This document shows, in pieces, positions 1,086 through 25,111 of a stretch of 32,384 nt of DNA (positions are counted from its first letter, which is position 1; every line of letters starts with the position of its first letter). The notes under the pieces are model-generated. The model did no database searches, had not been told where the DNA came from, and saw only the letters and a list, made by a program, of their open reading frames with translations. A program made the position numbers and the translations under genes. The stretch comes from a virus (taxonomy: Duplodnaviria; Caudoviricetes): the IMG/VR virus record IMGVR_UViG_3300005805_000279, positions 1-32,384 of that record. One strand, 5' to 3'.

Positions 1086-1086
1086 T

Positions 1087-1596
1087 TTAGACCACCTTCT
1101 TGTAGGTTTTGTTGTTTACAATCCCGCTGATTGTTATGCGGCTTACATTTAAATCTTCTGCTAACTCCATGATGCCTACGCCACCAGCCGACACCTTACG
1201 GATGTAGCGCACAAGGCTGTCTGGTAGGGGTTCTGCACGGGCTTTTCTTTCCTTGCCGCTTGCTTTAAAATCTGCTGCGTTGGCGGCGTAATCACCAATT
1301 TTTAAATGTGCAGGATTATAGCATGGAGGATTATTACATTTGTGTTGGACTTGCTCACGGGGGCTGAGATCTATTTGGTGAAACCACTCATAGAAAATTC
1401 TGTGGGTTTGACCTTTCTTTTGTAGAGCAGTTATTTTAGTGTGTCCGCACTCATTACCAACTGTGCCACGGAATTCCCAACAGCCACTCTCAGGATTGAT
1501 TGTTGTTTTCTGGATTAATCTGCTAACAAAAGACCTTAGTAGTTCATGTTCTGGACTTACATTTAGGGAGACACTTACATTTTTTACTTTACCCAT
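1087..1596 (-). CDS. HNH (His-Cys, HNH_3-like) endonuclease with C-terminal HTH
   Basis: GCWEFRG...THRIFYEW...VQHKCNNPPCYNPAHL...N, then IMELAEDLNVSRITISGIVNNKTY HTH. Start moved from 1773 to ATG 1596, which follows a GGAGG RBS. Confidence 0.85.
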   Translation of the reverse strand: MGKVKNVSVSLNVSPEHELLRSFVSRLIQKTTINPESGCWEFRGTVGNECGHTKITALQKKGQTHRIFYEWFHQIDLSPREQVQHKCNNPPCYNPAHLKIGDYAANAADFKASGKERKARAEPLPDSLVRYIRKVSAGGVGIMELAEDLNVSRITISGIVNNKTYKKVV

Positions 1597-1634
1597 CTGC
1601 TTATTCTCCTCCAGTTTTTTACTGGATGTTAGTG

Positions 1635-1671
1635 GAGAAGAAGACGCATCTAACCACCATTTCTTCTTCTC
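1635..1671 (-). promoter_or_regulatory. 5' leader hairpin of the HNH operon with UGGUGG in its loop
   Basis: 10-bp stem gagaagaaga (1635-1644)/tcttcttctc (1662-1671); ccacca at 1654-1659 in the loop; lies just downstream of a CTACTTA motif (1676-1682, minus). Confidence 0.5.
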
Positions 1672-1754
1672 ATAATAAGTAGATGATTGTAGAGCCAAAA
1701 GAAAATCTTTTTTACTATTATTGCAATTTTCTTTTTCGGTTTTGTAATTTGCTG

Positions 1755-1985
1755 AGATCTTTACACTTTTCATTTTGCTTTTTATCTTTCTGTCTATCTG
1801 CTAATCTTACTTTTAAAACTATCTTACTGTTTAGATTACTTATGTTGTCTCAGCATCCCGCTGTGTCTTACATTATTTTATCTTATCTTTACTGCCTTAC
1901 TGTTTCTTTTTCTTTATCTATCCAGAACTTTTAGTTGTTTAGACCACCCTGCCAAAAGAAAGAAATTATAATAAAGAAAGAAAAG
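1755..1985. other. AT-rich, strand-skewed non-coding tract with repeated TCTTAC-like words; candidate replication origin
   Basis: About 6 copies of (a)tctt(t)ac or ccttac between 1757 and 1900; pyrimidine-rich plus strand that flips to A-rich at about 1950; no credible ORF. Confidence 0.35.
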
Positions 1986-2011
1986 GTATCCCTCCAGATA
2001 AAACAATAGCG

Positions 2012-2112
2012 ATCCAACCAGCAGATGACCGCTGATTAGAGAAAATAAAAAGGCTGTTCTTCTACCACCATAGAAGTGAGAGTAGTGGTGGCTACTCTCA
2101 CAGCCTTTATTT
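2012..2112 (-). ncRNA. Structured element: three-way junction with complementary loops, plus an adjacent G-U-containing hairpin
   Basis: P1 2049-2056/2101-2108; P2 cttcta-CCACCA-tagaag 2059-2076; P3 tgagagtag-TGGTGG-ctactctca 2077-2100; hairpin 2013-2040 pairs fully only on the minus strand using G-U pairs. Confidence 0.55.
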
Positions 2113-2362
2113 GCCTTGCCTTACACTTGCTGTGTCGTTCCTCAGATTTAGAAAGCCACTATGTGGACTTATTTCCTCGTCACCAGTAATCGTGTTTCCC
2201 TTTACCCGACATTGCTGCCTGTAATTACAAACCCCGATTGAGATGCTTCTTACAATCTCAGACACAAACCCTATTCTACACTAACATTATTAATTAGTTC
2301 ACTCTTTTTTTTATTCCAAGAAAAAAATAAATCTTTTTCATTTTCTCAGACATAATTAGTTT

Positions 2363-2563
2363 GTGTATCGGATTATCTTAAAAAAAGATTTTAGTAAGTT
2401 TTATGTTCGCCATGTAAAAGAAAAAAGTGAGATGGTGATTGCCTATTGTATTCGTGATGCGCTTGGTGATTGGGTTGCTACAAACATCATCAGCGAGACA
2501 AACAATCTACACAAATTGCTATCCTATGTCAAGCGTTGTGAAGAACTTAATAAAAATGACTAA
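2363..2563 (+). CDS. Possible small hypothetical protein (66 aa)
   Basis: GTG-start ORF with protein-like composition in otherwise empty space; no clear RBS. Confidence 0.35.
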   Translation: MYRIILKKDFSKFYVRHVKEKSEMVIAYCIRDALGDWVATNIISETNNLHKLLSYVKRCEELNKND

Positions 2564-2600
2564 ACATTTCCTTTTACCTGTGGTAGTATCTAATTATAAA

Positions 2601-2688
2601 AAAGGACGGAAACCTGCTAAGGCAGTTCGCCATAATCTGCCGTTCTCCCTGTCCTTTCTGCCCCGCCACCACGGGGCAGTTTTATTTT
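2601..2688 (+). promoter_or_regulatory. Structured leader/attenuator upstream of the HTH-MTase operon
   Basis: aaaggacgg...ctgtccttt stem enclosing ctgc-taag-gcag, then terminator-like ctgccccg-CCACCA-cggggcag (2658-2679) with a ttttatttt tail; preceded by CTAATTA at 2590-2596 and followed by RBS aaggag. Confidence 0.55.
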
Positions 2689-2707: not shown

Positions 2708-2905
2708 ATGTGCAAAGGAATTTACAACATGCCCCGCAATTACAAACTAACACCAGAACAAGTTTTAGAAATCAAGATGGATGATCGTCGTCCTTATAGG
2801 TTAATTGCTGTTGACTATGGTGTTTCTATTGCTACTGTTTGGAGCATTATCAATGGAAAGAAATGGAAACACATGGGAGAAAATAGAAATGGAACAAACA
2901 ATTAA
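2708..2905 (+). CDS. Stand-alone HTH DNA-binding protein (HNH C-terminal HTH type)
   Basis: KLTPEQVLEIK...YRLIAVDYGVSIATVWSIINGKKWKH; strong RBS ataaggag; overlaps the MTase start. Confidence 0.75.
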   Translation: MCKGIYNMPRNYKLTPEQVLEIKMDDRRPYRLIAVDYGVSIATVWSIINGKKWKHMGENRNGTNN

Positions 2906-4151
2906 TCTACATAATGCCGACTGTTGGGAAACATTAAAAACTTTACCAGATGATAGTGTTCACACTATTATCACAGATCCACCCTACGACATTGGCTTTA
3001 TGGGTAAAGATTGGGATAAAAACAGCCTTATCACTAATGTTGATTTCTGGAAAGAGTGCCTACGAGTTCTAAAGAGCGGTGGTTATTTGCTTTCTTTTGG
3101 TCATAGTCGCACCAGCCATAAGATGGCTACTGCTATTGAGAACGCTGGCTTCCAGATCCGTGACACGATTATGTGGATCTACGGCAGTGGTTTCCCTAAG
3201 TCACATAATGTTGGTGCTAAAGTTGATGGTTGGGATGGTTGGGGCACAGCACTAAAACCAGCACATGAACCAATCGTAATGGCTCGTAAACCATTAGAGG
3301 GCACTGTTGCTGATAATGTTCTTAAGCATGAGGTAGGTGCTCTAAACATTGATGCTACACGCATTGGTAATGAAGTTCTACCAGCCATTAGCACTAAAAC
3401 AGAAACAACCGACATTGGTTGGGAAAAGGCTGGCTACACAACGGCTGAAAGAACTGGTCGTTGGGCATCAAATGTTATGTTTAATCATGCTGAAAATTGT
3501 GAACTTGTTGGTGAGAAAGAAGACATAAGACAAGGTGGAGAAAGAACAAAAACTTTTGGTAGTGAAGAAGAACCAGTATCTGGCGGTGAAGGAACTGGCG
3601 GCACAATGAAAGAAATAACAAAAATCCCTGTTTGGAAATGTGCTGATGGTTGTCCTGTAAAAGCGTTAGATGAACAAGCACCAAACAAAGGCAACCTATT
3701 CAAGAAAAAAAGAAATAAAGGCACAAGCGGCGGTAGTGGTGATAGTTGGACTAATGGCGGCAAGGCGGCTGGCGAGGACAATGGTTTCTATGACGCACCA
3801 AGTGGAGCAAGCAAGTTTTTTTATTGTTCCAAGGTAGGCAAGAAGGAACGCAATGCTGGTTTAGATGGAAAACCAGAAACCACAACTGATGATGGAAGAG
3901 AAAAGTCAATAGACAATCCATTTCAAAGAGGTCAAACACTACGAAAGAATAATCATCCAACCGTAAAACCAATTGCTGTAATGGAGTGGTTGATTAAACT
4001 TGTTAGCCGTGAAGGGCAAACTGTTCTTGATCCATTTATGGGAAGCGGCACAACTGGAATAGCAGCAAAGCGTTTAGGTCGCAACTTTATTGGCTGTGAG
4101 CGTGAAAAAGATTTTTATGAAATAGCAAGCGCAAGGATTGAGCACGGCTAA
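2889..4151 (+). CDS. DNA N6-adenine/N4-cytosine methyltransferase, beta class (orphan)
   Basis: Catalytic IITDPPY near the N-terminus; HPTVKP and SAM-binding VLDPFMGSGTTG near the C-terminus (beta order). Likely start is ATG 2889 (MEQTINLHNAD). Confidence 0.93.
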   Translation: MEQTINLHNADCWETLKTLPDDSVHTIITDPPYDIGFMGKDWDKNSLITNVDFWKECLRVLKSGGYLLSFGHSRTSHKMATAIENAGFQIRDTIMWIYGSGFPKSHNVGAKVDGWDGWGTALKPAHEPIVMARKPLEGTVADNVLKHEVGALNIDATRIGNEVLPAISTKTETTDIGWEKAGYTTAERTGRWASNVMFNHAENCELVGEKEDIRQGGERTKTFGSEEEPVSGGEGTGGTMKEITKIPVWKCADGCPVKALDEQAPNKGNLFKKKRNKGTSGGSGDSWTNGGKAAGEDNGFYDAPSGASKFFYCSKVGKKERNAGLDGKPETTTDDGREKSIDNPFQRGQTLRKNNHPTVKPIAVMEWLIKLVSREGQTVLDPFMGSGTTGIAAKRLGRNFIGCEREKDFYEIASARIEHG

Positions 4152-23740: not shown

Positions 23741-24706
23741 TTATTTTTTTGCTGCTGCTGCTTTTTCGTATTTTTCTAAAATCTCTAATGCTCGCGCTTC
23801 ACCAAATTTTCGTGCGTCATAGGAGCGATTAGGATCAAAACTTTGTTTTACAGTGTTTAGTTTATTTGTAATTGTAAAATCATTACTTGTTTGTTTTGGT
23901 AATTCTTTTTTGTATTGGTCTATTACTTCACGGTTTACTGGCTTGGTTGGTTCTTCAGCAACCGCAGCCTTTACTGCCTCACCACGATCTGCGACTTGTG
24001 CCGCTTCCGCTGCGGTGGCTGTGCCGTTTGCTAATTTAGCATTAATGCGTCCCCACTCTTCACGAAAGTATTCTTCTATTGTTTCGGCTACTTTTTTGTA
24101 TTCAATAACTTCGCCAGTTTCGGCGTAGTGTTCTTCCATAGCAGTCCAAATCATTTGTTCTGGACTTTCAGCACCGCCAAGTGAAGAATAAAGTTCGCTG
24201 ATGTGTGGTAATGCTTTGCTATTATCTTTTACATAGGTGCTAATTTCGCTTTGCCAACGATCAACCATCGCTGCTTTTTCTTCTTCTAACCGCGCCAGTT
24301 CATAAACTTCTAATTGACGCTTGACTTCTGCTTGAACATCAACTGGACCGCTACGCGCTTTTTCATTAGCATCTAAGATTGCTTCGGTTAGGTCTTCATA
24401 GGTAATGCCTAACTTTTGTAAAACGCCGTGTGGATCGGCTTTATAAATGTCCTTAGCCTTAGTAAAAAATTCTGCTTGCTCGCGGATCTTCTGGAACTCT
24501 TCAGTTATTTTTTCTAATTCTTTTTTACGAGCAACCTCTGCCTTAGCAAATTGCGCTTCACGACGAGCAAGTTCTAATAAGCGTTTGCTATCAGCAGTGG
24601 GTGCTGCGGGTGGCGTTTCGGCAGGTTGTGTTTTAACCTCCGCAACTTGTGCCTCCTCTTTGGGAGTTTCTACTGGTTTGGTTTCAGCGGTTCCTTCGCT
24701 CATCAT
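23741..24706 (-). CDS. Capsid scaffolding protein
   Basis: Acidic Pro/Glu N-terminus and long charged coiled coil; lies between portal and major capsid. Confidence 0.75.
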   Translation of the reverse strand: MMSEGTAETKPVETPKEEAQVAEVKTQPAETPPAAPTADSKRLLELARREAQFAKAEVARKKELEKITEEFQKIREQAEFFTKAKDIYKADPHGVLQKLGITYEDLTEAILDANEKARSGPVDVQAEVKRQLEVYELARLEEEKAAMVDRWQSEISTYVKDNSKALPHISELYSSLGGAESPEQMIWTAMEEHYAETGEVIEYKKVAETIEEYFREEWGRINAKLANGTATAAEAAQVADRGEAVKAAVAEEPTKPVNREVIDQYKKELPKQTSNDFTITNKLNTVKQSFDPNRSYDARKFGEARALEILEKYEKAAAAKK

Positions 24707-25044
24707 TATGCTTTCCCTTTCTTCTTTTTAATAGGCAACGCTTCAATGTGATCGCCGTTGATGCAATTTTCAGTTCCACAAACACGGCGTGTGCGTTGAC
24801 GCTTTTTTAATTTCTTACCACTCGCACGCTCATAAGCATAGCGATGTGCTTTTACTATACCACCTGCTTCATTTGGTTTTTCACCAAAAACAGGTTGATT
24901 AAACCTATCAAATGATGCTAACCAAAAGTGGCATGGTTCTTCCATGCCGTCTACATGTGGTCCATCACGATCAACATAACGCTCAAATCTTTCTGCTGGC
25001 GGGGTTGCTTTTGGTCCGCGCTTACCTTTTCGTTTTTTAGTCAT
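24706..25044 (-). CDS. HNH_3-like Zn-binding protein, probably catalytically degenerate
   Basis: PCHFW...KAHRYAYE...RRVCGTENCINGDHI; the HxC of the active site reads RVC; very basic termini. Confidence 0.7.
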   Translation of the reverse strand: MTKKRKGKRGPKATPPAERFERYVDRDGPHVDGMEEPCHFWLASFDRFNQPVFGEKPNEAGGIVKAHRYAYERASGKKLKKRQRTRRVCGTENCINGDHIEALPIKKKKGKA

Positions 25045-25111
25045 TTACTTATCCTCACTACAATAAGTAGATGCCTCCGCAGAAAAAGAAATAAAATAAT
25101 GCGTTATTATT

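What the first reader, a model, noticed from the sequence alone, without database searches (positions are those of the whole stretch)
1635..2688. Shared loop code across the divergent control region: a possible RNA-RNA kissing switch in place of a protein repressor
Seen: the same hexamer occupies hairpin loops four times in about 1 kb of largely non-coding DNA. It reads UGGUGG in the leftward leader of the HNH-GNAT-terS operon (stem 1635-1671), forms both loops of the central dumbbell, and reads CCACCA in the terminator-like hairpin (2658-2679, then ttttatttt) in the rightward leader of the HTH-MTase operon. The central RNA could thus pair with both leaders, and the two leaders with each other. 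Established: P4 CI RNA and P1 C4 RNA control immunity by pairing exposed loops with nascent leaders. Inference: this may be an analogous, undescribed system, since no CI-like repressor is seen. CCACCA is also the 3' end of tRNA-Ala and tmRNA, so tRNA-end sensing or mimicry, or one loop-binding protein, are alternatives.
Basis: partly seen in the sequence, partly recalled or inferred. Interest (0 to 1): 0.8.

Follow-up and report, generated by a model that had tools for sequence, protein, structure and literature searches.

The report
Kissing-loop code linking divergent phage leaders
In a small freshwater phage, two neighbouring hairpin loops in a non-coding region are exact complements and change their letters together between strains, and a distant stop-signal-like hairpin shows the same change, so the RNAs made from the two opposite directions likely control each other by loop-to-loop pairing, a twist on an RNA design that other phages place over the start of DNA-cutting and replication genes.

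Summary
The four loops exist and exceed chance (0 of 1500 shuffles). Strains of this 32-kb podophage carry a second allele: both central loops change together (CCACCA/UGGUGG to CCGACA/UGUCGG), with four compensatory stem pairs; another strain adds two more. The terminator-like hairpin at 2658-2679 shows the same two-letter change (one study, not linked to the centre on one contig). The hexamer in hairpin 1635-1671 was never seen to switch. [quoted passage not shown] Here no start codon follows; an outer stem closes a three-way junction followed by a U-tract on the leftward strand. Best reading: an internally kissing attenuator on the leftward leader, whose UG loop a short rightward RNA ending at 2658-2688 likely competes for. 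tRNA-end sensing is refuted. Immunity in place of a repressor is untested, as is expression.

The parts
2050..2107 (-). Three-way junction: outer stem P1 (2050-2057 with 2100-2107), CC-loop hairpin (2078-2099, loop CCACCA on the minus strand), UG-loop hairpin (2059-2076, loop UGGUGG on the minus strand); the loops are complementary
   Evidence: six compensatory pairs in X3 contig 11 and two in X12 contig 3 (checked)
2042..2051 (-). U-tract directly after P1 on the leftward strand (terminator-like)
   Evidence: sequence; no change listed in X3 contig 11 or X12 contig 3, whereas the plus-strand tail 2106-2116 is broken by deletions in X12
2658..2688 (+). H4: 8-bp terminator-like hairpin with loop CCACCA plus T-tract; loop reads CCGACA in other strains
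   Evidence: changes 2668 and 2669 in X4 contig 19 and X6 contig 27
2601..2688 (+). Predicted short rightward RNA (about 85 nt, two hairpins, ends at H4)
   Evidence: fold z -4.6; promoter and expression inferred, not shown
1635..1671 (-). H1: 10-bp hairpin whose 17-nt loop holds UGGUGG (1659-1654)
   Evidence: no switch of the hexamer seen
1593..1686 (-). Predicted junction that includes H1 and hairpin 1610-1626 and pairs up the Shine-Dalgarno region and AUG (1596-1594) of the HNH gene
   Evidence: fold z -4.0; no covariation data
1087..1596 (-). HNH endonuclease gene, first gene of the leftward run that goes on to GNAT, terS, terL, portal, capsid and tail genes
   Evidence: PHROGs HNH families
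2593..2620 (-). Candidate leftward sigma-70-type promoter (a second one at 2532-2504)
   Evidence: 10 of 12 matches; 7 sites found against 7.8 expected, so not evidence by itself
2708..2905 (+). 65-aa HTH protein like the DNA-binding end of HNH endonucleases
   Evidence: PHROGs phrog_59, E 1e-5
2805..4151 (+). N6/N4 DNA methyltransferase
   Evidence: Pfam PF01555

Best explanation
The two central loops are exact complements that change together between strains and so very likely kiss inside a three-way junction that is predicted to end or attenuate the leftward leader, while the short rightward RNA predicted to end at hairpin 2658-2688 carries a copy of the CC loop and likely competes for the UG loop, coupling the two divergent transcripts. 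Shown: the hairpins, the compensatory changes in stems and loops, the same change in H4, and a family of twin hairpins with the same loop pairs in unrelated phages. Inferred: that the leftward strand is the working RNA, that the U-tract terminates, that the short RNA is made, and that it pairs in trans. The UG loop of H1, part of the fold that hides the HNH start, would be a second target, but this link has no covariation support. The element would be a ribosome-site-locking leader that lost its gene and was re-used as a transcription switch.
For: X3 contig 11: all 15 changes lie in 2054-2106, none in the flanks; 12 form six compensatory pairs, two of them loop-to-loop. X12 contig 3: 13 changes in the flank 2014-2041, only two compensatory stem pairs shown in the core, loops unchanged (20 of 21 changes shown). 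A third stem version with the TGTCGG loop in X7. H4 changes at the same two loop positions to the same letters; chance about 2-3 in 10,000 at the local divergence; in X6 the junction contig seen at the CC loop and the H4 contig are both of the new type; in X1 both are of the old type. Matched loops pair at -8.4 and -7.8 kcal/mol, cross-allele loops at -1.2 and -1.5. Family: 8 of 103 contexts with both Watson-Crick stems of 4 or more against 0.025 expected; start codon plus long frame in 11 of 12 structured versus 2 of 87 unstructured; three further members with other loop letters found without fixing the loops. Strand: G-U pairs and the start codon fix the family's strand, which matches the window's minus strand; only the minus-strand U-tract is kept in X12.
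Against: No contig joins H4 to the junction; in X4 the only junction contig shown is old-type while the only H4 contig shown is new-type (a strain mix could explain it). The H4 change comes from one study, so it is one event. H1 did not switch in X6. With tight borders both strands of the junction fold equally well (z -4.4 and -4.5), and all eight compensatory pairs in the window's alleles are Watson-Crick with no G-U. A covariance model of 11 family members does not find the window's junction. In six member genomes no lone hairpin repeats a member's loop, and three copies in one genome use three different codes: the family as a rule acts alone in cis. A trans partner would have only a short time window at a terminator. 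Promoters are consensus guesses.
Confidence: 0.45

Rival explanations
1. The junction acts alone in cis (a kissing-stabilised terminator or RNA 3' end), and H4 shares the loop for another reason, such as a protein that binds the CC loop or copying between the two 8-nt inverted repeats.
For: Family members are self-contained; H1 did not switch and X4 shows mixed types.
Against: H4 changed by exactly the two letters that keep it complementary to the UG loop while its stem shows no listed change; no candidate RNA-binding protein was found.
Confidence: 0.2
2. One reading: a stable central RNA uses its two loops to pair with both nascent leaders, like P4 CI RNA, giving immunity without a repressor.
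For: On the minus strand the central RNA has a UG loop matching H4 and a CC loop matching H1; H4 covaries; no repressor found.
Against: The two central loops are each other's partners, so neither is free by default; H1 did not switch; no integrase or partition gene points to lysogeny; no C4 or related Rfam match even at E 10.
Confidence: 0.15
3. The pairing happens on one long plus-strand RNA or on single-stranded DNA (H3 with H2 or with H4, 580 nt away), for instance as an RNA-primed or hairpin origin in a phage without replication genes.
For: No polymerase, primase, helicase or initiator found; both strands fold equally; only Watson-Crick compensations; two family members precede replication initiators.
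Against: TerL relatives at 55-60% identity, including one complete genome, have no such element; the family's G-U pairs and start codons point to mRNA leaders; no rightward promoter left of the junction was found.
Confidence: 0.12
4. The loops sense or mimic the CCACCA 3' end of tRNA-Ala or tmRNA.
For: The window's hexamer equals that end (established knowledge, recalled).
Against: The second allele is CCGACA/UGUCGG, and family members use CCUAAU, CUGACA and CCAGUA: none ends in CCA or offers the UGG needed to pair with it. No tRNA or tmRNA gene in the window.
Confidence: 0.02
5. Chance placement of a common hexamer.
For: The hexamer occurs 45 times in the genome; H1 alone has a 5 in 1000 chance.
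Against: 0 of 1500 shuffles; compensatory changes.
Confidence: 0.02

Closest known systems
RBS-sequestering hairpins of T-even homing endonuclease genes (I-TevI, I-TevII, I-TevIII, segB, mobE; PMC2988022, passages read)
   Same: RNA structure in front of homing-endonuclease genes that hides the Shine-Dalgarno sequence; true of the wider family found here and of the predicted fold 1593-1686 before the window's HNH gene.
   Different: Those are single hairpins relieved by an internal late promoter; here two hairpins have complementary loops, and the window's copy has no start codon behind it and ends in a U-tract.
Phage P4 CI RNA and P1 C4 RNA (P4 described in PMC4825925, passages read; C4 recalled)
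   Same: RNA-only control by exposed loops pairing with complementary leader sequences, acting on termination.
   Different: CI is processed from the same transcript as its targets seqA and seqC; here the matching H4 loop lies on the opposite, divergent transcript, the regulator's loops pair with each other, and there is no Rfam match and no sign of lysogeny.
Guanidine-IV riboswitch (PMC11611296, passages read)
   Same: A kissing loop between two hairpins decides whether an intrinsic terminator forms.
   Different: There the terminator's own loop kisses and a ligand drives it; here both kissing hairpins sit inside the terminator-like stem, loop letters vary freely, there is no Rfam match and no ligand-related gene.
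   Same: Three-way junction with two complementary loops that could also pair between molecules.
   Different: This phage has terS and terL genes and needs no pRNA; relatives of the element lie on mRNA leaders.
Uncatalogued twin-hairpin kissing-loop leaders before phage endonuclease and replication genes (found here; also in earlier AI notes e1-5919914, e1-5746399; possibly among unnamed candidates of PMC10690425)
   Same: CC-loop hairpin closed by G-C, then UG-loop hairpin with purine-rich 3' arm; six-base complementary loops; both of the window's loop pairs occur in the family.
   Different: The window's copy is closed by a third stem, has no start codon, and shares its code with a distant hairpin.

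Membership tests
Twin-hairpin kissing-loop leader family (uncatalogued) | Two adjacent hairpins with fully complementary six-base loops that covary | tested here: met
Twin-hairpin kissing-loop leader family (uncatalogued) | Shine-Dalgarno across the UG loop and a start codon 6-10 nt behind it | tested here: not met
   no start codon or ORF there; U-tract instead
Twin-hairpin kissing-loop leader family (uncatalogued) | Match to a covariance model of 11 CCGACA members | tested here: not met
   one search finds L201 (15 bits) but not the window; the model is biased to one loop pair and to the start-codon context
P4 CI / P1 C4 antisense immunity RNAs | Match to Rfam C4-type models | tested here: not met
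P4 CI / P1 C4 antisense immunity RNAs | Complementary targets up- and downstream on the same transcript, covarying with the regulator's loops | tested here: inconclusive
   H1 lies downstream on the same strand but did not switch; H4 switched but works on the other strand
P4 CI / P1 C4 antisense immunity RNAs | Processed RNA that causes termination and immunity in a lysogen | not testable with these tools
   needs RNA data and a host
T-box / tRNA-end-sensing RNAs | Invariant UGGN to pair with the tRNA NCCA end | tested here: not met
   second allele UGUCGG; no Rfam match
Guanidine-IV riboswitch | Rfam match and conserved loop letters | tested here: not met
   loop letters vary
T-even single-hairpin RBS locks of homing endonucleases | Stem that hides the RBS of the endonuclease gene | tested here: met
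   predicted for the fold 1593-1686 only, not for the central junction
T-even single-hairpin RBS locks of homing endonucleases | Late promoter inside the structure that frees the RBS | not tested
   the phage's late promoter type is unknown

The most novel reading that the evidence does not exclude
An RNA-only switch between two divergent phage transcripts: a short rightward RNA and the leftward leader compete for the same UG loops, deciding between methyltransferase expression and the nuclease-packaging-structural operon, with orthogonal six-letter loop codes that split the phage population into specificity (immunity-like) groups, in a genome with no repressor, integrase or replication gene.
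Probability: 0.25. Interest if true: 0.85.

Novelty: new variant of a known kind. Interest (0 to 1): 0.62.

Why it matters
If the coupling is real, a tiny phage would time a methyltransferase against a nuclease and its whole virion operon with nothing but swappable six-base RNA loops, and natural orthogonal alleles supply the control experiment. Even without it, the work shows a phage RNA family absent from Rfam that locks the start of homing-endonuclease and replication-initiator genes, and a case in which such a leader appears re-used as a terminator. The 60-nt junction is small enough for direct structure and termination tests.

Tried and rejected
Single-protein scans of viral contigs found no locus; the exact dumbbell pattern found none. 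TerL relatives L001-L061 and genomes G002, G003 hold no such element. The metagenome pattern scan gave 24 matches, none a true twin hairpin. BLAST of the region and of three family members against annotated phages gave only chance matches. A strict pattern was not found in 401 sampled genomes of one bacterial phylum, and the model found nothing in 3 bacterial genomes. Rfam: nothing for the window or 13 other loci apart from tRNAs. No RNA holder was listed among sequencing runs: no evidence either way on expression. X3 has no contig over 1148-1960: absence of cover only. L107 (CCAACA/TGTTGG, 4+4 bp, T-tract) is a marginal member, not found by the model. L167 (perfect palindrome), L292, L328, L347 and one A/T-rich hit in G412 were set aside as chance. 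A large RNA over 2140-2600 has no folding support (z between -2.4 and +2.0). The 13-of-14 inverted repeat 1626-1639 with 2274-2287 is within what chance can give by my estimate. Tandem Trp codons in H1, Chi sites, recombinase spacers and a hammerhead core were considered by eye and dropped: the hexamer changes, the arms covary as stems, and the putative core is mutated in X12. Pairing of the CC loop with the GGUGG site before the 196-aa gene was dropped: that site shows no listed change in X4 or X6. The 196-aa protein stayed unexplained.

Full report
Setting. The window is a complete 32.4-kb phage record with terminal repeats. Almost all genes run leftwards: HNH, a 196-aa orphan, GNAT, terS, terL, portal, capsid, adaptor, tail and internal virion genes; only a small HTH gene and a DNA methyltransferase run rightwards. 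No polymerase, primase, helicase, integrase or repressor was found among 31 proteins scanned (nine rescanned). Near-identical sequence lies in lake and freshwater DNA runs. The host is unknown; a terminase at 45% identity comes from a record named Myxococcaceae bacterium.

Observation. The four hairpins are present. H2, H3 and H4 have exact hexaloops; in H1 the hexamer is part of a 17-nt loop. No shuffle of 1500 reproduced four loop hits of one hexamer or even two identical hexaloops; H1 alone had 5 of 1000. An 8-bp outer stem closes H2 and H3 into a three-way junction.

Strain variation. Contigs of 8 of the 14 listed runs were laid. X3 contig 11 has 15 changes, all inside the junction. Twelve form six compensatory pairs: one in the outer stem, one in H2, two in H3, and two between the loops, which turn CCACCA/TGGTGG into CCGACA/TGTCGG; the other three lie beside gaps. 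X12 contig 3 has 13 changes in the flank 2014-2041 but in the core only two compensatory pairs in H2, loops unchanged (20 of 21 changes shown); its plus-strand tail is broken by deletions while the A-run that gives the minus-strand U-tract is kept. A loose end in X7 shows a third stem around the TGTCGG loop, and one in X6 shows the CCGACA loop. H4 carries the same two changes in X4 contig 19 and X6 contig 27 (same study); chance is about 2-3 in 10,000. Against a strict link: no contig joins H4 and the junction, and in X4 the junction contig shown is old-type while the H4 contig shown is new-type. H1: X6 contig 22 has 14 changes, 13 shown, none in the hexamer; a switch needs two, so H1 did not switch there. 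Contigs drop rare variants, so this leans against, without excluding, a link of H1.

A wider family. Pattern scans of viral contigs (the last two covered 46 of 64 parts) gave mostly chance matches but also true twin hairpins in unrelated phages. With both loops fixed, 8 of 103 contexts had both Watson-Crick stems of 4 or more, against 0.025 expected; several of these are related cassettes, so independent cases number about eight. A feature not used in selection separates them: a start codon 6-10 nt behind the UG loop opening 90 or more codons in 11 of 12 structured and 2 of 87 unstructured contexts (3 of 102 left out for short flanks). The GG of the loop and the AG of the stem form the Shine-Dalgarno sequence. 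Downstream genes are GIY-YIG or HNH-type endonucleases (L123, L358, L321, L363, L356, L291, L339 weak, L360), replication initiators (L336, L403) or unknown (L352, L201). Stems covary across 11 members (members were chosen for stems, so this is partly circular). A scan of six member genomes with free loop letters found three more members with loops CCTAAT, CTGACA and CCAGTA, each with its complement and each before an endonuclease VII gene. One genome holds three copies with three codes, and no genome repeats a member's loop in a lone hairpin (3.6 kb of two genomes unscanned; the L336 copy was missed by the descriptor). So the family normally works alone, in cis. I found it before reading earlier AI notes that describe the same design; they are not independent support.

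What is special here. Read on the minus strand, the window's pair has the family's order and arm composition, and both of its loop pairs occur in the family (L201, L123). But no start codon follows, a third stem closes it, a U-tract follows, and a model of 11 members does not find it. It is therefore filed as working like the family, not as a member. It alone has a distant hairpin with the same, co-changing loop. H4 ends a well-folded stretch of about 85 nt on the plus strand (z -4.6), and H1 is part of a fold that pairs up the HNH Shine-Dalgarno region and AUG on the minus strand (z -4.0). Folding energy does not fix the junction's strand: -4.9 against -2.4 in a wide window, equal in a tight one.

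Mechanism. Most likely the leftward leader folds the junction, the loops kiss, and the outer stem with its U-tract ends most transcripts before the nuclease and virion genes. The short rightward RNA offers an identical CC loop, so it can take the UG loop; matched loops pair at about -8 kcal/mol, cross-allele loops at about -1.5, so alleles would be orthogonal. Whether this raises or lowers read-through, or acts after termination on RNA decay, is open. The kiss is strongly supported (about 0.9), a pairing role of H4 moderately (about 0.6), the whole mechanism at 0.45.

Comparison. T-even endonuclease leaders are single RBS hairpins relieved by a late promoter (PMC2988022, passages). P4 CI RNA pairs with seqA and seqC on its own transcript (PMC4825925, passages). 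The guanidine-IV riboswitch uses a kiss to block a terminator (PMC11611296, passages). Terminator loops of small RNAs can regulate, likely without pairing (PMC11979758, abstract and outline). Rfam has no match. Ten paper searches (listings) showed no description of this motif; the library lacks most subscription papers. PMC5737381 has no passage on endonucleases or kissing loops in its main text and its supplement was unreadable. PMC10690425 lists unnamed candidate RNAs before HNH, GIY-YIG and endonuclease VII genes, such as the 51-nt freshwater DNAVirus_7989; its alignments were unreadable, so overlap with the family cannot be excluded. pRNA, C4, T-box and ColE1 details are recalled.

Verdict. 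A real, covarying kissing-loop element; a new variant of known RNA-pairing control, with one intriguing but single-event link between divergent leaders. Interest 0.62.

Noticed in passing
window 1086-1096 and 1938-1948: An exact 11-nt direct repeat (2 copies; 0 of 100 shuffles) brackets the HNH gene and H1; the left copy is the ribosome-binding region of the 196-aa gene. It may mark the borders of an inserted HNH cassette.
   Followed up: partly
window 25046-25069: Hairpin over the ribosome-binding site of a second HNH-like ORF (24706-25044) between portal and scaffold genes.
   Followed up: no
window 1721-1944 and 2190-2237: Replaced by other letters in X12 contig 3 (224 by 119) and X3 contig 13 (48 by 96): variable spacers on both sides of the junction.
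   Followed up: no
whole window: Complete podophage with no recognisable replication, integration or repressor gene; the 196-aa protein at 495-1085 has only three near-identical relatives.
   Followed up: partly
G412 (L419:17905, L420:9540, L421:7663): Three twin-hairpin leaders with three different loop codes before three endonuclease genes in one phage.
   Followed up: partly
L336 and L403: The same leader before phage replication-initiator genes; L336 appears to start at TTG.
   Followed up: partly
L058: A 5.5-kb contig with a relative of this terminase lies in a genome bin named Acidimicrobiaceae; host link or mis-binning not checked.
   Followed up: no
L038 about 1100-1170 and L041 about 420-510: Arrays of short GGATATCG/GGATTTCG-like repeats upstream of terminase genes in distant relatives.
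   Followed up: no
L167 1201-1236: A perfect 36-nt palindrome in a viral contig.
   Followed up: no
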